Source: Eledone cirrhosa (lineage: Eukaryota). Taken from it: 64,000 nt of DNA. A model generated the notes under the pieces. It did not search any database. It was not told the origin of the DNA and saw only the letters and a list, made by a program, of their open reading frames with translations. A program made the translations under genes and the position numbers. Each line of letters opens with the position of its first letter. The first letter of the stretch is position 1. This document shows, one piece after another, positions 141 to 61,112 of the stretch. Where the stretch lies: contig OZ024740.1 of assembly GCA_964016885.1 (NCBI GenBank), positions 423,770,001-423,834,000 on the forward strand. Direction: 5' to 3'.

Positions 141-1490
141 TCACATAGAATCTCGAGGCTATCCGCCAATGAGGATATCTTCAACCAAGCGGCAGATTAC
201 TACAATAGGGCCCTGATAAGCGCCGGCTTTAACCGAGGAATTTCCTACATCCCTAACGCTAGCTCTAGAAACCACCCCCCTCATAAAACTAACGTTATAG
301 TAAGCCATACCTATAACCGATCACGCGGCGACCTCGTTGAAGTCGGATATAATAGAATAGATAACCGCACCAAAGAACATGACCCCGGCGACGGTGAACA
401 CTGTAGATTACTCAAACTATTCCCCTATTACAAAACCAACAAAGGCGACGGCCTACTACCAACGCCTTCCAACCAACATCTTCGTGTACATAAACATGGA
501 AGAGGTAGAAAGAGTGCACCCGAGCATAAAGTGAAAGGGGCACCGAACGGGCGACTGCGCATTAACACACATAAGAGCGGTCACTTAGATGGAACCACCC
601 GTAGCAAAAGTACAAGGACACGTAATCGCCACCGTAACGTCCTATGGTTCCACCCCCCCTACTCTCGGAGTGTGGCCTCCAACATAACCCGGATGTTCTT
701 CGAAGCCTTAGAGAAGAACTTCCCGCCCAACCATAGGTATAGAAAAATTCTTAATAGGAGCAATATAAAAATATCCTTCTCTACTACTCCTAACCTAGCA
801 GACATCATAGGAACAACGAACCACAGTAAGATTACCAAGACACAGCACCTCGACACAGATGCACCTACACCTGACAATAACTATATCGGCCTTAACAACT
901 CCCTGGCAGATTCCAATAGTGTTGGCAACGGCATCCGCAGACGCAACCAGAATAACCGCGAAATGACTGGGGAACATGCAGAACATGACGTGCGGAATAA
1001 CAATCGCACCACCCCGCGTGCTGTGGGTTGTAATGGTGCTAACGACAGCTGTGGTAGCGTAGGTAACAACGTAGGCAGCAACAATGATAGCCTTACCGTG
1101 GGAAATAGATGGAACCGCGACAGAAATTGCAACTGCCGCGACAGAGGACGCTGCCCCCTTAGAGGATACTGCTTGACTGATAGGGTTATATATAGATGCA
1201 CTATTACTAGCCACAATAGCGTTAAACATTATATAGGGGCTACCTCCGGCTCGTTCAAAATTAGGTTTCGAACACATCTCCACTCTTTCAAAAATAGAAA
1301 ACTAAGGCACTCCACTTCGCTCGCGGACTACATCACATCACTAAAGGACTTAAACATCAGCTTCTCCACGCACTGGGAGATTGTCGGCAGGGCTGCACCA
1401 TACAACTTCAAGAGGAAATGCGATCTTTGCCTCATGGAGCTCTACTACATCATAACTGCACCCCCACGAGCTCATCAACAGCAGAGCTGA
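141..1490 (+). pseudogene. Partial PLE ORF (RT thumb + GIY-YIG endonuclease) with a frameshift near 1460
   Basis: The frame of ORF 531-1490 is open back to 141 by manual translation. The expected C-terminus (ELINSRAETAISCTHR) continues in another frame after the C-run at ~1461-1465. Confidence 0.75.
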
Positions 1491-1850
1491 AACAGCGATA
1501 AGTTGTACACATCGCTTAAAAATATCCTTCTTCAGATGGGTTAAGGATGAAGAGTGAAACAGTACACTGGATCTCCCTGCAACAAGTCTTAACACCCCGG
1601 CGGGCAGGCGCTGCAAAATAACACCCACGAAACAATCCTTGCATACCAGACCCAGCCTCAGACAAACGGATGCGGGAAAAAAAAAAAAAAAAATTGTCCA
1701 GGAAAGACTGCCCTAACACCGGCCAGAGTTACCTCCCTTGACCTGCTGCAAAATCAAAACAAGATATTTTTGCGAGCAATGAACCTTGATGTGGATTTAA
1801 CCCCCAAAACTCTTTCCGAGCAATATAAGGAACACTTGTGATTATTTATG

Positions 1851-2166: not shown

Positions 2167-3781
2167 TCATCATCATCATCATCAGGTTTAGCGTCCGTGT
2201 TCCACGCTTGCATGGGTTTGGACGGGGGTTTTCCCACTTGAGGCAAGAGTGGTTGTCTTGCTCGCATAGGACTGTCTGGCGGGTTTTCTACAGTTGGATG
2301 CCCTTCCTAACACCAACCACATTTACAGTGTGGGGCTGGGAGGTTTTTACCGTGTTGCCTACACGGCCACATTACAGCGTGGACTGTCTGGCGGGTTTTC
2401 TACAGCTGGATGCCCTTCCTAACACCAACCACATTTACAGTGTGGGGCTGGGAGGTTTTTACCGTGTTGCCTACACGGCCACATTTACAGCGTGGACTGT
2501 GTGTTTTTTGTCGTGACACCTACACGATCTCATTTGTTTCGGCCTGGATGTTGTGGGACCAACATAACTTTACATTGAAAGGGGCGGTGTGGGTGGGGTG
2601 GAGGGTGGTGGGACGGGGGTGTGTTTTGATAGAGATGCCTACTGACTGTAGTAGGTTTTTACTTTGTATTTAGGTAAGGCGGGTCTTCTCTATTACTGAG
2701 TACCGCCAAAGGTCTCGGTCCAGTGACATTGTCTTGGAGAGGTGTAAGCGTGTGAGGTCGGAATTTATCAGCTCGTCCCATGTTTTTCTGGGTCTGCCTA
2801 CTCCGTGGCTACCGTCTATCTTTATTGCCCTGCACTTTGTTATACAGCTGTCGTCTTTCATGCGCATCACGTGACCGTACCAACGTAGCCTTCTCTCGAG
2901 TAAACAACATCTGATCCCTCTTATTTCTAATTTTTTCCTTAGTTCGTTTATGCTTTGCCGTTCACGTATATTACTATTGCACATCCAGCGGAGCATGCAA
3001 GCTTCGTTCCTCTCTAGTCTGCGTATATCCTCTGCACACAATGCCCAGGTCTCACTGCCATGCAGCATTGCTGTTCGTATGCAGGCATCGTATAACCTGC
3101 CTTTCATTTTTAGGGAGAACCCTCTAGCGGCTAATAGTGGTATAAGCTCTCTGAACTTTTTCCATCCAGTTCTGACTCTAGCTACTGTACTTTCAGAGCA
3201 CCCTCCCCCACTGCTGATTTTGTCACCCAGATAACGGAAGCTGTCCACTATTTCTATAGAACCCTCTGCGCAGTTGAAGGAGCTAGTATTTTGTGGGCAC
3301 TTGCTGCTACTTATTGCACCAGAGCACCGGCCACATGTAAAATCTATGTTCTTAGTTAGCTTACCTGTGATCCCACTATATCTTTTATGCACCCATACTT
3401 TGCATTTGGGACATAAAATGGAGTTTCTACCTACGCCTTTCCTACACACTGAGCATGGCCATTTCCCCGATGGGACCGCCGCCTTATTTTCTTTCCTACA
3501 AACTAGAACTTTAGTCTTAGCCAGGTTAATTTTAAGGCCTTTTGATTCTAGGCCGTGCTTCCACGTTTGGAATTTCTTCTCTAGTTCGGTCATTGATTCA
3601 GCTATGAGCGTTAGATCATCTGCGTATAGGAGTTCCCATGGGCAGCCGGTCTTGAACTCCTCTGTTATAGCCTGAAGGGCAATAATAAATAGTAGGGGGC
3701 TAAGAACAGAGCCCTGATGGACACCAACTTTTACGCTAAACTCTTCACTATATTCGTTGTTAATTCTAACCTTACTGACTG

Positions 3782-3783
<2 letters not shown>
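2164..3783 (-). mobile_element. 5'-truncated RTE-clade LINE (subfamily A) with 3' UTR and (GAT)n tail
   Basis: ORF 2670-3593 is nearly identical to the C-terminal half of 20914-23181 (Cys finger, LRWYGHV, GRPRKTW); GVHQGSVLSP and YADD lie upstream; (CAT)n at 2164-2183. Confidence 0.95.
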
Positions 3784-3816
<33 letters not shown>

Positions 3817-4147
3817 TTATATATATTATATATACATAAAGTTTATATATATATATATATGGAAAGTTATATTTAAATTGTTGGGTTACAACTAGTAAAT
3901 ATTTATAACTGATATAAAAGCACTCAACAAGTATTTGCCAAATCAACTTTTTCAAATACAAGTCGATGTTGAACGGTATGTCAAATCTATTTATCTATAA
4001 AACTGTCTATATTGTATTTTGTCTGAAGAAGGCATAACATATTGTTAATATGATATCCCTGAAATATATATGATGAAATAAATATGGTTTTATAAATATA
4101 GTTTCCATTTATTTAATATCGTTATATATATATATATAAAGTTTATA

Positions 4148-4656
4148 TCATCATCATCATCATCATCATCATCAGGTTTAGCGCCCGTGTTCCACGCTTG
4201 CATGGGTTTGGACGGGGGTTTTCCCACTTGAGGCAAGAGTGGTTGTCTTGCTCGCATAGGACTGTCTGGCGGGTTTTCTACAGCTGGATGCCCTTCCTAA
4301 CACCAACCACATTTACAGTGTGGGGCTGGGAGGTTTTTACCGTGTTGCCTACACGGCCACATTTACAGCGTGGACTGTGTGTTTTTTGTCGTGACACCTA
4401 CACGATCTCATTTGTTTCGGCCTGGATGTTGTGGGACCAACATAACTTTACATTGAAAGGGGCGGTGTGGGTGGGGTGGAAGTGGTGGGACGGGGGGGTG
4501 TTTTGATAGAGATGCCTACTGACTGTAGTAGGTTTTTACTTTGTATTTAGGTAAGGCAGGTCTTCTCTATTACTGAGTACCGCCAAAGGTCTCGGTCCAG
4601 TGACATTGTCTTGGAGAGGTGTAAGCGTGTGAGGTCGGAATTTATCACACGCTTAC
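4148..4656 (-). mobile_element. Short 3' fragment of RTE subfamily A
   Basis: Same 3' UTR and ORF end as the copy at 2164-2770, without that copy's internal duplication; (CAT)n tail. Confidence 0.93.
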
Positions 4657-8907: not shown

Positions 8908-8925
8908 ATATATATATTTATATAT

Positions 8926-9070
8926 ACTCAGGTTAAACTGAGTTTTGTTACTCTGAAGATTTGCCTGTTTATCACAGTCAAAACTCCAGAGTTTAGCCTT
9001 AATAAAATGAATATTAAAACTCTATTTCAGTATTGAGTACTCTTTTCTCTCAGCTGTCAACCACATACGG
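8926..9070 (+). mobile_element. pLTR-like fold-back relic (family 2)
   Basis: AAACTCCAGAGT..TTAGCCTTAATAAAA..GTATTGAGTACTCTTTTCTCTCAGC; flanked by (TA)n. Confidence 0.6.
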
Positions 9071-9124
<54 letters not shown>

Positions 9125-20915: not shown

Positions 20916-23181
20916 GAATATATCTATACTCTACTGGAAGCTAAAGGACCCCATAGCCAGAAATAAATTTCAAAGCATATTACTTGACGCTTTCGACAGT
21001 AAGGAAGAGCAATTAGAGTCGTATAATATAGAGGAACAGTGGGAATTCCTGAGAGCAAACCTGCTGACGGCGGCAGACGAAGTCTGTGGCTGGAGCAGGC
21101 CTGTAGGTAGGAGGAGAGTAACATGGTGGTGGAACAGTAAGGTGGAGGAGTCAATTAAGGCCAAAAAGCAGGCTTGGAAAGCATGGCGGGATGGGGGAAG
21201 TAGAGAAGACTATCAAGTGGCCAGGAGGGAAGCTAGGAGACAAGTGTACTTCGCAAGAAGGGAAGCAGAGGAAAGAAAGTTCAAGCATGTTCTACAACGT
21301 GAGGACCAAAAACGTGAGGTGTTCAGGATTGCCAGGCAATGTGTCAAGGAAAACCGTGATATTGTCGGGGAGAAGTGTGTACTTAACGATGATGGCATAC
21401 TTGCCATCACCGACGCTGATAAGAAGGTAGCTTGGAAGTGTCACTACGAAAGGCTTCTAAATGAGGAGAACAAATGGGAGAAAGACAGTCTCCCCCACAT
21501 CGACCCAATAGAGGGACCAGCAGTGATAGTCCAGGGTAGTACAATAAGCAAGGCAATCAAAGATATGAAGACGGGCAAGGCGGCTGGTCCTTCGGAAATA
21601 GTTGCTGAGATGCTGAAGGCATCTGGTTCGGTGGGACACACCATGGTCACCCGGATAGTTAACCAAGTCGTACAGAATGGGGTTGTTCCGAAGGACTGGT
21701 GTAGCAGCATCATCGTTAACTGCTATAAGGGAAAAGGAGATGCCCTAGATAGGAGTAACTATAGAGGCATTAAATTAATCGACCAGGTCATGAAGGTCAC
21801 GGAAAAAGTAATAGCGCAACTAATCAGAGAGAGAATTGATCTAGATGAAATGCAGTTCGGATTTGTGTCAGGCAAAAGTACCACAGACGCTCTTTTCATT
21901 GTACGACAACTACAAGAGAAGTACCTAGCTAAAAGTAAACCCCTATACTTAGCTTTCGTCGACTTGGAGAAAGCCTTCGACAGAGTCCCCCGTTCCATTA
22001 TCTGGTGGTCTCTTAGAAAACTAGGTGTTGACGAATGGCTTGTGAGAGCTATACAAGCCATGTATAAAGAAACAGTCAGTAAGGTTAGAATTAACAACGA
22101 ATATAGTGAAGAGTTTAGCGTAAAAGTTGGTGTCCATCAGGGCTCTGTTCTTAGCCCCCTACTATTTATTATTGCCCTTCAGGCTATAACAGAGGAGTTC
22201 AAGACCAGCTGCCCATGGGAACTCCTATACGCAGACGATCTAACGCTCATAGCTGAATCAATGACCGAACTAGAGAAGAAATTCCAAACATGGAAGCACG
22301 GCCTAGAATCAAAAGGCCTTAAAATTAACCTGGCTAAGACTAAAGTTCTAGTTTGTAGGAAAGAAAATAAGGCAGTCCCATCTGGGAAATGGCCATGCTC
22401 AGTGTGTAGGAAAGGCGTAGGTAGAAACTCCATTTTATGTCCCAAATGCAAAGTATGGGTGCATAAAAGATGTAGTGGGATCACAGGTAAGCTAACTAAG
22501 AACATAGATTTTACATGTGGCCGGTGCTCTGGTGCAATAAGTAGCAGCAAGTGCCCACTAAATACTAGCTCCTTCAACTGCGCAGAGGGTTCTATAGAAA
22601 TAGTGGACAGCTTCCGTTACCTGGGTGACAAAATCAGCAGTGGGGGAGGGTGCTCTGAAAGTACAGTAGCTAGAGTCAGAACTGGATGGAAAAAGTTCAG
22701 AGAGCTTATACCACTATTAGCCGCTAGAGGGTTCTCCCTAAAAATGAAAGGCAGGTTATACGATGCCTGCATGCGAACAGCAATGCTGCATGGCAGTGAG
22801 ACCTGGGCATTGTGTGCAGAGGATATACGCAGACTAGAGAGGAACGAAGCTTGCATGCTCCGCTGGATGTGCAATAGTAATATACGTGAACGGCAAAGCA
22901 TAAACGAACTAAGGAAAAAATTAGAAATAAGAGGGATCAGATGTTGTTTACTCGAGAGAAGGCTACGTTGGTACGGTCACATGATGCGCATGAAAGACGA
23001 CAGCTGTATAACAAAGTGCAGGGCAATAAAGATAGATGGTAGCCACGGAGTAGGCAGACCCAGAAAAACATGGGACGAGCTGATAAATTCCGACCTCACA
23101 CGCTTACACCTCTCCAAGACAATGTCACTGGACCGAGACCTTTGGCGGTACTCAGTAATAGAGAAGACCCGCCTTACCTAA
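20914..23181 (+). CDS. RTE reverse transcriptase ORF (755 aa, endonuclease-less) with an internal Cys/His finger
   Basis: Uninterrupted ORF. The first ~7 codons, including the ATG, come from flanking sequence; expression is unproven. Confidence 0.6.
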   Translation: MNISILYWKLKDPIARNKFQSILLDAFDSKEEQLESYNIEEQWEFLRANLLTAADEVCGWSRPVGRRRVTWWWNSKVEESIKAKKQAWKAWRDGGSREDYQVARREARRQVYFARREAEERKFKHVLQREDQKREVFRIARQCVKENRDIVGEKCVLNDDGILAITDADKKVAWKCHYERLLNEENKWEKDSLPHIDPIEGPAVIVQGSTISKAIKDMKTGKAAGPSEIVAEMLKASGSVGHTMVTRIVNQVVQNGVVPKDWCSSIIVNCYKGKGDALDRSNYRGIKLIDQVMKVTEKVIAQLIRERIDLDEMQFGFVSGKSTTDALFIVRQLQEKYLAKSKPLYLAFVDLEKAFDRVPRSIIWWSLRKLGVDEWLVRAIQAMYKETVSKVRINNEYSEEFSVKVGVHQGSVLSPLLFIIALQAITEEFKTSCPWELLYADDLTLIAESMTELEKKFQTWKHGLESKGLKINLAKTKVLVCRKENKAVPSGKWPCSVCRKGVGRNSILCPKCKVWVHKRCSGITGKLTKNIDFTCGRCSGAISSSKCPLNTSSFNCAEGSIEIVDSFRYLGDKISSGGGCSESTVARVRTGWKKFRELIPLLAARGFSLKMKGRLYDACMRTAMLHGSETWALCAEDIRRLERNEACMLRWMCNSNIRERQSINELRKKLEIRGIRCCLLERRLRWYGHMMRMKDDSCITKCRAIKIDGSHGVGRPRKTWDELINSDLTRLHLSKTMSLDRDLWRYSVIEKTRLT

Positions 23182-23583
23182 ATACAAAGTAAAAACCTAC
23201 TACATTCAGTAGGCATCTCTATCAAAACACCCCCCCGTCCCACCATCTCCACCCCATCCACACCGCCCCTTTCAATGTAAAGTTATGTTGGTCCCACAAC
23301 ATCCAGGCCGAAACAAATGAGATCGTGTAGGTGTCACGACAAAAAAAACACACAGTCCACGCTGTAAATGTGGCCGTGTAGGCAACACGGTAAAAACCTC
23401 CCAGCCCCACACTGTAAATGTGGTTGGTGTTAGGAAGGGCATCCAACTGTAGAAAACCCGCCAGACAGTCCTATGCGAGCAAGACAACCACTCTTGCCTC
23501 AAGTGGGAAAACCCCCGTCCAAACCCATGCAAGCGTGGAACACGGACGCTAAACCTGATGATGATGATGATGATGATGATGAT
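20935..23583 (+). mobile_element. 5'-truncated RTE-clade LINE (subfamily A), young copy
   Basis: RT motifs GKAAGPS, NYRGIKL, QFGF, FVDLEKAFDRV, GVHQGSVLSP, YADD; 3' UTR and (GAT)n tail; no APE domain. Confidence 0.95.
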
Positions 23584-23776
23584 ATAGGAACAAGTAAGAC
23601 CCCGACGGCTGAGCTCAAGCCGTTTCGACGGCTAATTCCACAGAATTAGCCATCGAAACGGCTTGAGCTCAGCCGTCGGGGTCTTACTTGTTCCTATTAC
23701 CCACTCTACTACCCTAAGTATTGAGTACTTTGGTGCGTTATGGTCTACCTGGTTCCTTACCACATTTCCTTCGCTA
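23584..23776 (+). mobile_element. Fold-back pLTR relic (family 1) with the 3' half of a hammerhead ribozyme
   Basis: ~55-bp inverted arms at 23584-23697; CGAAAC-GGCT..AGCC-GTC; related copy at 58344-58484. Confidence 0.75.
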
Positions 23777-23799
23777 TATATATATATATATATATGAAT

Positions 23800-24141
23800 G
23801 GAGGCACATGGCTTAGTGGTTAGAGCATTGGCCTTGCAATCGAAAGGTTGTGAGTTCAATTCTCAGACCGGGTGATGTGTTGTTTCCTTGAGCAAGACAC
23901 TTTATTTCACATTGCTCCAGTTTACTCAGCTGTAGAAATGAGATGATAGGGACTGGGGTCCATATCATTCCACTGCAAAGTGGTCGTGGAGGTGCCACGG
24001 CAAAAAAGCACCCAGCACTCACTGTAAATGAGGTTGGTGTTAGGAAGGGCATCCAGCTGTAGAAATCAAGCCAGAATCAGTTCCCGTCCCACCCTTGCAA
24101 GCAGGGAAAAGTGGACGTAAAATGATGATGATGATGATGAT
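23800..24141 (+). mobile_element. Complete tRNA-derived CORE-like SINE with RTE-derived tail
   Basis: A box TGGCTTAGTGG, B box GAGTTCAATTC, TTTCCTTGAGCAAGACACTT, RTE-like tail and (GAT)n. Confidence 0.85.
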
Positions 24142-52709: not shown

Positions 52710-53490
52710 ACAGTTGATTGGCAGTATCAATAGAGCATCGAACAACATGGTGTGTGGCATTGAGTTATGGCCCTTTACGTTCAAAGTTAAAATCCCACTG
52801 AGGTTAGTTTTGTCTTTCATCCTTACAGGGTTGATAAAATAAATGTAATGGACTGGAGTTGATTTAATCGACTTTCCCCTCCCTCCAAAATTGTTGGCCT
52901 TGTGCCTAAAGTAGAAACCATTATCATAATAATAATAATTATTATTATTGTTCCAGAATGTAAACATGGTTGGTGTTAGGGAAGGCATCCAGCTGTAGAA
53001 ATCCCAGCCAAAATACAGTTCTCTCTGAGCAAGGTATGGCACAGCCAGACTTGTCTTATAACATGGACAGACTGTGTACCATGCAAACCTGGAAAAATGG
53101 ACGTTAAACAGTGATTATTATTATTGAAGTGGTGGATTGGCAGTATCGGTAGAGGGTCGGACGCCATTCTTTGCAGCAAATAGTTACATCCCTTTATGGT
53201 CTGAGTTCAAATCCCCCTGAGGTTAACTTTGCCTTTCATCCTTACGGGGGTCGATAAAATAAAGCACCAGTAATACACTGGGATAATTGCTGGCCTTGTG
53301 CCAAATGTAGAAACAATTATTATTGAAAAAGTTAATAATAATAATTGTTTCTACGTTTGGCACAAGGCCAGCAATTACCCAGAGCATTACTGGTACTTTA
53401 TTTCACGGGGTCGATAAAATAAAGTACCAGTAATGCACTGGGTAATTTGCTGGCCTTGTGCCAAACGTAGAAACAATTATTATTATTAAG
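52710..53490. mobile_element. Cluster of SINE copies and tails, including inverted tails
   Basis: SINEs at 52710-52925 and 53128-53325; inverted tail at 53335-53405; direct tail at 53406-53488. Confidence 0.75.
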
Positions 53491-57866: not shown

Positions 57867-58080
57867 TTAAGCCTTTAGCATTTAACCCGGCCAGAATTCT
57901 CTCACCTTTTTCTGTTCAAACTGGATGTAACTGACCACTCATACTGATGTTAAGGTATTGTTCCCAAAATAAATAACATCAAAATCTTGTAGATTCCATA
58001 TTATGTGAGATAATTATGTAAGATAAAGCCTTTACCACTTTACCATAAAATACAATATATATAGAGTAATATAAATGCTA
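57867..58080. mobile_element. piggyBac-like MITE, inverted relative to 7163
   Basis: TTAAGCCTTTAGCATTTAA start; ends AGAGTAATATAAATGCTA. Confidence 0.6.
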
Positions 58081-58243
58081 AATAGTGAGTCTTGTTATTC
58101 TAGAGTTTCACCTGTTTATTACAGGGTCACCTTGGTGAAACTCCAGAGTAACAAGACTCACTATTTAGCCTTTATAAAAAAAGAATATTAAAACTATATT
58201 TCGGTATTGAGTACTCTTTTCTCCCAGCCTTCAACAACACATG
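58077..58243 (+). mobile_element. Fold-back pLTR relic (family 2)
   Basis: Inverted arms at 58077-58169; GAAAC-TCCAGA-GTA hammerhead-like 3' half. Confidence 0.7.
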
Positions 58244-58343
58244 GATATATATATATACTTAGTTAAAAAAACTTTTTCAAATCTGAAGTCCGGGCAATCC
58301 ACTGGTGATCAATGGCTGGTAAAGATGTTGTGTATATATATAT

Positions 58344-58484
58344 AACGAAGGAAGTGTGGTAAGCAACCAGGTGGACAATAACGCACCAGAGTACTCGATA
58401 CTTAGGGTAGTAGAGTGGGTAATAGGAAAAGAGTCAGGACCCCAATGGCTGAGCTCCGGCTGTTGGGGTCCTGACTCTTTTCCT
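58344..58484 (-). mobile_element. Fold-back pLTR relic (family 1)
   Basis: Reverse-complement homolog of 23660-23776; hairpin at 58424-58484; (TA)n on both sides. Confidence 0.75.
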
Positions 58485-60876: not shown

Positions 60877-60908
<32 letters not shown>

Positions 60909-60915
60909 TCATTTC

Positions 60916-61112
60916 ATTAAGGTTAAATAGAGTGTCATTTTACTCTGGAGTTTCAGCTGTTTATCACAGGGTCCTCAGACAAGAGTGACCCTGTGATAAA
61001 CAGGCAAAACTTCAATGTAACAAGACTTACTGTTTAGCCTTAATAAAATTAATATTAAAACTCTTCTTCAGTATTGAGTACTCTTTTCTCTCAGGCATCA
61101 ACCACATATGGG
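60916..61112 (+). mobile_element. Fold-back pLTR relic (family 2)
   Basis: Inverted arms at 60916-61044 (CTGTTTATCACAGGGTC/GACCCTGTGATAAACAG). Confidence 0.7.

What the first reader, a model, noticed from the sequence alone, without database searches (positions are those of the whole stretch)
23584..23776. Hammerhead-containing fold-back insertions that snap back at different ribozyme stems
Seen: 23584-23697 is a near-perfect hairpin. Its right arm reads stem II (GAATTAGCCATC), GAAAC, stem III (GGCT-TGAGCTC-AGCC), GTC, then stem I, which is a hammerhead 3' half; the CUGAUGA half is replaced by the inverted copy. The homologous element at 58344-58484 (minus strand) shares the 3' body but folds back later, at stem III. 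Known: Penelope-like elements carry hammerheads in their pLTRs and often insert with inverted 5' pLTRs. Inference: the cDNA self-primes second-strand synthesis on whichever ribozyme hairpin the RT stopped in, leaving tiny non-coding palindromic insertions in (TA)n. These would be hairpin-RNA and ADAR substrates.
Basis: partly seen in the sequence, partly recalled or inferred. Interest (0 to 1): 0.75.

Follow-up and report, generated by a model that had tools for sequence, protein, structure and literature searches.

The report
Penelope stubs ending inside a ribozyme
These two hairpins are protein-less stubs of a Penelope-like jumping gene with tens of thousands of copies in this genome; their arms mostly stop at one spot inside a loop of the element's predicted hammerhead ribozyme, likely the capped start of its RNA, so they were likely made by two copying enzymes running off that end and being joined head to head, not by snapping back on ribozyme stems.

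Summary
The hairpins are real. They are 5'-end stubs of a Hydra-type Penelope-like retroelement: 25,144 exact hits to a 26-mer, and long copies carry an RT + GIY-YIG ORF. The parent has a predicted hammerhead, but with a U3-A8 core (UUGANAA, 6,961 arms) and a ~32-nt loop II; the 23584 copy turns inside that loop, not at stem II. In 100 copies chosen only by the tail motif, 60 of 91 short tailed arms start within -6..+9 of one Inr-like site, none between -98 and -23; a non-native G often precedes it, as for a copied cap. Exact stem III fold-backs number only 208. One junction occurs in both mirror orientations, 138 versus 100; one tail-primed cDNA snapping back cannot make the second. Best reading: twin priming at two fixed internal sites, run-off at the likely capped start, then end joining. 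No RNA evidence was available. Inverted pLTRs, tails and U3-A8 are published; this scan's agents reported the same reading on other DNA. The likely start site inside loop II is the new twist.

The parts
23584..23638 (-). Inverted, tail-less arm of stub 1: parent positions +61 to +7 (+1 = inferred transcription start); outer end at the fixed +61 site joined to TA
23639..23639 (.). 1-nt filler at the head-to-head junction
   Evidence: sequence compared with long copies L007/L044
23640..23697 (+). Tailed arm of stub 1, +4 to +61: end of loop II, stem II 3' strand (23647-23654), GAA core (23655-23657), stem III (23658-23676), predicted cleavage base C17 (23677), stem I 3' strand (23678-23682)
23698..23775 (+). 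One-sided 78-nt tail (+62 to +139); in full-length copies it runs on into the 5' UTR and ORF
23776..23796 (.). (TA)n target run
58459..58484 (+). Inverted, tail-less arm of stub 2 (second subfamily), ending in the stem III microhomology
58344..58464 (-). Tailed arm of stub 2, from stem III 5' strand to +139, with CpG decay; (TA)n on both sides

Best explanation
The two hairpins are dead, protein-less insertions of the 5' end of a Hydra-type Penelope-like retroelement, and each was likely made at landing by two reverse transcripts, primed from the two cut strands of a (TA)n target at two fixed internal sites (+61 and +139), that likely ran off the capped 5' end of the element RNA and were then likely joined head to head by end joining. 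Shown: parent identity, copy number, fixed outer ends, pile-up of inner ends at one site, excess G before it, mirror-image junctions, arms from one source. Inferred: that the site is a capped transcription start (Inr-like TCAGT/TTAGT with a TATA-like word 29-31 nt upstream) lying in loop II of a U3-A8 hammerhead, so the RNA's 5' end carries only the 3' half of the ribozyme, which is why the stubs lack the 5' half. Joins at stem III, such as the 58344-58484 copy, are a minor class in which the two same-sense cDNAs would anneal through a self-complementary stretch.
For: Parent: L044 links the stub sequence to a GIY-YIG ORF end; 5 of 8 long loci fetched (L086-L090) hold an open frame of 788-819 aa with the RT and GIY-YIG motifs in frame, and the tail runs into the 5' UTR. 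Ends (first 100 exact tail matches on C1; 9 long, 91 short, 73 short with an adjacent inverted arm): tailed arm starts at -6..+9 in 60 of 91, upstream of -6 in 3, none between -98 and -23; tail-less arm inner end at -6..+9 in 56 of 73; outer end at +61 in 41 of 73 and +53..+63 in 61 of 73. Contigs of two public runs of unknown kind show loose ends at L044 8468 (= +1; X1 only), 8528 (= +61) and 8602. Cap-like G: base -1 is T or C in 45 of 45 long arms, yet 6,596 arms have a purine there; hand count of the first 100 listed: G 86, A 14, and 38 G not explained by the opposite arm (36 explained, 12 ambiguous); control one base further in: G 19 of 100, about 10 unexplained. Extra G marks capped 5' junctions of L1 insertions (PMC11702581, passages). 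Two cDNAs: the same junction has the full-length end on the tailed arm 138 times and on the tail-less arm 100 times; tail-less arm longer by 5 nt or more in 20 of 73, tailed arm in 21. Junctions show microhomology in 33, filler in 31, blunt in 9 of 73. Arms share the subfamily block: identical in 30 of 52 parsed, 39 within one change, against 10% and 18% for random pairing. In vitro a PLE protein cuts and extends both target strands and starts RT at two internal sites that bracket the tail (PMC11167929, parts 1-2 of 4).
Against: No RNA data: the start site and cap are inferred from DNA only. The boundary is fuzzy (-6..+9), and 8,980 arms lack native +1 but keep +2, more than the 6,596 with a purine at -1, so trimming or several starts are needed. 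Some arms reach -11 to -22, and 9 of 100 copies run far upstream, which a transcript starting at +1 alone cannot template. The TATA-like word varies between subfamilies and also serves as stem II. The G counts are hand counts of 100 rows each and the control is not like-for-like. Inversion of the short spacer after insertion could create mirror junctions; several 'tail-less arm longer' cases are internal deletions or misparses (L045, L111, L114). The sample is young, tailed copies from the first 27 Mb of C1.
Confidence: 0.65

Rival explanations
1. One tail-primed cDNA runs off the RNA 5' end, adds a few untemplated bases and self-primes there (snap-back at the run-off end, not at ribozyme stems); later deletion or inversion of the hairpin tip scrambles which arm is longer.
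For: Arms almost always come from one source, with shared rare variants (L130, L144, L153). 138 junctions have the orientation that snap-back allows, as does the 23584 copy. Self-priming was proposed for PLE palindromic junctions (PMC3846280, passages).
Against: 100 mirror junctions; L044; one copy with arms from different subfamilies (L100); it does not explain why the second arm stops at +61, which the two in vitro start sites do (PMC11167929).
Confidence: 0.15
2. Twin priming holds, but the shared end point is a strong reverse-transcriptase stop or an RNA processing site in loop II rather than a capped transcription start.
For: Fuzzy boundary; the site lies 10 nt past the 3' strand of stem II; arms that pass it exist.
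Against: Excess non-native G exactly at -1; Inr-like word and TATA-like spacing kept in all subfamilies aligned; in a second PLE family of the window the longest arms stop just 5' of stem I instead (by eye, about 8 of 30 loci), so the stop does not track one ribozyme element.
Confidence: 0.12
3. One reading: the cDNA self-primes on whichever ribozyme hairpin the RT stopped in.
For: The 58344-58484 copy and 208 exact copies join across stem III; other joins use self-complementary words.
Against: About 1% of copies; the main pile-up is in loop II with no native stem; no join at the true stem II was seen in 73 inverted copies; mirror junctions.
Confidence: 0.06
4. A fold-back DNA transposon or MITE with internal deletions.
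For: Fixed outer ends and a TA target.
Against: Sequence is the 5' end of an RT + GIY-YIG element; asymmetric tail; variable centres with fillers.
Confidence: 0.02

Closest known systems
Hydra clade of C-terminal EN+ Penelope-like elements (Craig et al. 2021, PMC8557442; passages, section 11, supplement rows)
   Same: Single RT + C-terminal GIY-YIG ORF, DKT, CxCX5C linker, CxxC and CxH around the conserved E and N, no CCHH, (TA)n target, hammerhead-type motif in the pLTR.
   Different: RWR rather than RWK; repeat unit about 3.5 kb rather than under 3 kb; U3-A8 core with a ~32-nt loop II rather than a canonical HHR; by eye a different family from their Hydra-1_Obim (not aligned).
PLE insertion unit with inverted 5'-truncated pLTR and one-sided tail (PMC3846280, PMC8557442, PMC2377424; passages)
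   Same: Head-to-head arms, tail on one arm, TATA/Inr-like words in the pLTR, palindromic junctions.
   Different: Tail is 78 nt, not 30-40; most copies are only 140-200 nt; published model is self-priming, possibly on an antisense template, whereas the counts here favour two cDNAs on the sense RNA.
Internal initiation at two sites by the PAc PLE protein (PMC11167929, parts 1-2 of 4)
   Same: Two fixed RT start sites bracket the tail; both target strands are cut and extended; AT-rich target.
   Different: PAc is Poseidon clade, its HHR overlaps the start codon; run-off at the RNA start and head-to-head joining were not described in the parts read.
L1 twin priming and cap-derived extra G (PMC11702581, passages)
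   Same: Second target strand primes a second cDNA; microhomology or filler at the join; extra G at full-length 5' junctions.
   Different: In L1 the two cDNAs cover different parts of the RNA; here both cover the same 60 nt and start at fixed internal sites near the 5' end.
U3-A8 hammerhead variant of Schistosoma Cercyon PLEs (PMC4209133, parts 1-2 of 4)
   Same: U3-A8 in place of C3-G8 in a PLE pLTR; nearby motifs on opposite strands were noted there.
   Different: Those are minimal HHRs without helix III; this one has a 5-6 bp helix III and a long loop II holding the likely start site.

Membership tests
EN+ Penelope-like element | Single ORF with RT and C-terminal GIY-YIG endonuclease | tested here: met
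   Motifs read in ORFs of L086-L090; Pfam scan of the ORF itself gave no family; 1,921 relatives at E<=1e-30 among 7,999 scored, best hit carries PF01541
EN+ Penelope-like element | pLTR partial tandems, inverted 5' copy, one-sided tail | tested here: met
Hydra clade | DKT, CxCX5C linker, CxxC/CxH, no CCHH | tested here: met
   read by eye in the ORFs against section 11 of PMC8557442
Hydra clade | RWK motif | tested here: inconclusive
   RWR at that place
Hydra clade | (TA)n insertion preference | tested here: met
   96 of 100 and 67 of 73 junctions
Hydra clade | Generally under 3 kb, canonical HHR | tested here: not met
   unit about 3.5 kb in L089; core is UUGANAA; both are typical traits rather than strict definitions
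Hydra clade | Placement in the RT phylogeny | not tested
   no tree was built; reference proteins were not available to the tools
Type I hammerhead ribozyme (parent pLTR) | Three helices round a core ending in NUH | tested here: met
   unconstrained RNAalifold of 25 long copies gives the three-way junction; single-sequence MFE gave it in 1 of 4 copies, z -0.6 to -2.5
Type I hammerhead ribozyme (parent pLTR) | Core CUGANGA with C3-G8 pair | tested here: not met
   G8 in only 67 sporadic hits; U3-A8 variant instead, N7 takes all four bases, but 22 of the first 100 listed have a C3-A8 mismatch (hand count)
Type I hammerhead ribozyme (parent pLTR) | Compensatory changes in the helices | tested here: inconclusive
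   copies 90% identical; covariation term 0.02, none in the core helices
Type I hammerhead ribozyme (parent pLTR) | Self-cleavage after C17 | not testable with these tools
   weak hint only: 9 of 298 arms from 7 insertions start at +41..+43 (hand count)
Type I hammerhead ribozyme (window stubs) | Both core strands present | tested here: not met
   stubs lack the 5' core strand
Non-LTR retrozyme | Tandem units each with a complete HHR | tested here: not met
   stubs are head-to-head and have no complete HHR; definition from 10.64898/2026.07.22.740005, part 1 of 5
MITE / fold-back DNA transposon | Constant TIRs derived from a transposase element | tested here: not met

The most novel reading that the evidence does not exclude
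The element's promoter sits inside loop II of its own hammerhead, so each transcript starts with half a ribozyme and ends where the complete copy cuts, giving a 41-nt terminal repeat like a retroviral R region. The stubs are then integrated strong-stop DNAs, and the strong-stop cDNA jumping to the cut 3' end would be the missing mechanism that regenerates Penelope pseudo-LTRs.
Probability: 0.15. Interest if true: 0.8.

Novelty: new variant of a known kind. Interest (0 to 1): 0.45.

Why it matters
How Penelope-like elements make their inverted and tandem ends is an open question (PMC8557442 and PMC2377424 say so in the passages read). Tens of thousands of natural junctions in one family let self-priming and twin priming be told apart by counting, and they map a likely start site to the base. 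A start site inside a ribozyme loop would also explain how a transcript keeps its 5' end while being able to cut its 3' end. The two window copies are themselves ordinary dead insertions, and the scan's agents have noted the same twin-priming and run-off reading in other genomes.

Tried and rejected
Rfam scans found no hammerhead. A canonical CUGANGA 5' half was sought and found only sporadically. Pfam gave no family for the ORF. I first read the parent as Neptune-like; the motifs fit Hydra. One search was spoiled by TA repeats in the references and was redone. One search used a mis-registered structure string and is disregarded; one search replaces it. No RNA holder was listed, which says nothing about expression; the two runs laid (2 of 4 listed) are contigs of unknown kind, possibly from the assembled sample, so their depth was not used as copy number or expression. 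A strand jump leaving a G at -1 in long copies was looked for: 0 of 45. Look-up of earlier findings by sequence gave nothing. Literature searches found no paper placing a PLE start site inside a hammerhead loop or counting mirror junctions; subscription journals, Repbase and bioRxiv supplements were not searchable and could bear on this.

Full report
Observation. The 114-nt hairpin at 23584-23697 is real and so is its relative at 58344-58484. Both lie in (TA)n. Rfam finds no hammerhead in the window.

Family. A DNA search of G000 gave 2,019 candidates, 40 scored; an exact 26-mer spanning the start of the tail occurs 25,144 times, control 0. Copy L044 ties the stub to the end of a GIY-YIG ORF. 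Of 8 long loci fetched, L086-L090 carry an open frame of 788-819 aa (about 720 aa from the first plausible ATG) with RT and endonuclease motifs; L085, L091 and L092 are broken or truncated at the 5' end. The stub's tail continues into the 5' UTR of these copies. The motifs DKT, CxCX5C, CxxC/CxH and the lack of CCHH match the Hydra clade as described in section 11 of PMC8557442; the RWK motif reads RWR, the unit is about 3.5 kb, and no tree was built. I file it as a Hydra-type PLE on motifs only.

The ribozyme. But long copies carry a stem I strand followed by UUGANAA and a strand complementary to the stub's stem II strand; 6,961 arms match this layout, control 1, and position 7 takes all four bases. 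RNAalifold on 25 long copies, given no constraint, returns the three-way junction. U3-A8 is a published PLE variant (PMC4209133, parts 1-2 of 4). Against activity: no covariation can be seen at 90% identity, only 1 of 4 single copies folds this way at minimum energy, Rfam is silent, and 22 of the first 100 listed arms have C3 with A8 (hand count). So the parent has a predicted, untested hammerhead with a ~32-nt loop II. The stubs hold only its 3' half.

Where the arms end. I numbered from the A of an Inr-like word in loop II (+1); C17 is +41. In the first 100 exact tail matches on C1, 9 are long and 91 short; 73 short copies have an adjacent inverted arm. Tailed arms start at -6..+9 in 60 of 91, at +10..+41 in 16, at +42..+61 in 12, upstream of -6 in 3, and none between -98 and -23. 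Tail-less arms end inside at -6..+9 in 56 of 73 and outside at +61 in 41 of 73. End calls are good to a few bases, and L045, L111 and L114 are misparsed or internally deleted. The 23584 copy (+7 and +4) belongs to the main class. The exact stem III join of the 58344-58484 copy occurs 208 times. Contigs of public runs of unknown kind show loose ends at +1, +61 and the tail end, so the ends are not peculiar to this assembly, though the runs may be its source.

What the end point is. Base -1 is T or C in 45 of 45 long arms. Still, 6,596 arms have a purine there, G in 86 and A in 14 of the first 100; 38 of the G are not explained by the opposite arm, 36 are, 12 are ambiguous (hand count). One base further in, G is 19 of 100, about 10 unexplained. 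An extra G is the known trace of a copied cap at L1 5' junctions (PMC11702581, passages). A TATA-like word lies 29-31 nt upstream; that TCAGT-type words are initiators is recalled, and a TATA/Inr pair in a PLE pLTR is mentioned in PMC3846280. I infer a capped start at +1. Against: the edge is fuzzy, 8,980 arms stop at +2, some arms pass it, and no RNA run was listed.

One cDNA or two. A single cDNA primed at the tail end that folds back must keep the most upstream bases on the tailed arm. For one defined junction the full-length end is on the tailed arm 138 times and on the tail-less arm 100 times; a few of the 100 may be copies tailed on both arms (2 of 73 in the sample reach the tail end). 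Across the sample neither arm is favoured (20 versus 21). L044's tail-less arm has about 1.1 kb that the tailed arm lacks. The arms nonetheless come from one source: identical subfamily block in 30 of 52 parsed copies against 10% by chance, with L100 one clear mismatch and most of the 13 larger differences being parse or length artefacts by eye (21 of 73 could not be parsed). Junctions show microhomology (33), filler (31) or blunt joins (9). With the in vitro finding that a PLE protein extends both target strands from two internal sites bracketing the tail (PMC11167929, parts 1-2 of 4), the simplest model is twin priming at +61 and +139, run-off at the RNA start, and end joining. Two same-sense cDNAs can pair only at self-complementary words, which accounts for the stem III class. 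Later inversion or deletion of the hairpin tip remains a loophole for snap-back.

Cleavage. After seeing earlier notes on cleavage-site starts I looked for arms that begin at the predicted cut: 9 of 298 arms, from 7 insertions, start at +41..+43, including two tiny palindromes (L025, L044) that turn there (hand count). This is a weak hint only.

Known and new. Inverted pLTRs, tails, (TA)n targeting and PLE hammerheads are published (PMC8557442, PMC3846280, PMC4209133, PMC2377424; passages or parts as stated). An octopus repeat annotation had no hit for hammerhead or hairpin (PMC13282606, passages); that G000 is a cephalopod is my guess from recalled repeats and was not tested. My searches found no paper with a start site inside a hammerhead loop or with mirror-junction counts. 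My reading was logged before I saw earlier notes; those notes report twin priming and run-off at a capped start in other genomes and a similar family in this one. They are unchecked and are not counted as support.

Noticed in passing
window ~8920-9080, 58060-58245, ~60900-61110: Three fold-back stubs of a second, older Penelope-like family with a canonical CUGANGA hammerhead and a related tail motif; 434 exact tail hits. By eye about 8 of 30 loci have arms that stop just 5' of stem I.
   Followed up: partly
window 28284-50583: 22-kb satellite array of a 65-nt unit, 344 copies, 93% matches.
   Followed up: no
window 53280-53480: Another fold-back repeat (source of the mir-302-like Rfam hits); the same sequence joins second-family tails in L213 and L231.
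   Followed up: no
window 141-1529: Decayed RT fragment, 30-48% identical to the parent ORF by tblastn.
   Followed up: no
window 2606-4647 versus 22071-23586: Long inverted copies (up to 875 nt, 99%) of a repeat with an (ATG)n end; stub 1 sits right at that end, and a tRNA-like repeat follows at 23809-23866.
   Followed up: no
one search list; L054, L115, L175, L189: A whole subfamily has amplified with a C3-A8 mismatch in the predicted ribozyme core, which fits the report that cleavage is not needed for insertion in vitro (PMC11167929).
   Followed up: partly
L051, L069, L070, L102, L133, L142: Copies whose tailed arm starts only at +41..+54 while the tail-less arm is long, like L1-type twin-priming products without duplication.
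   Followed up: partly
L089 2779-2920 and PMC8557442 supplement: Both priming sites end in TAT, a short match to the (TA)n target, and short tail motifs look shared by eye with the published Hydra-2_Amil 3' end.
   Followed up: no
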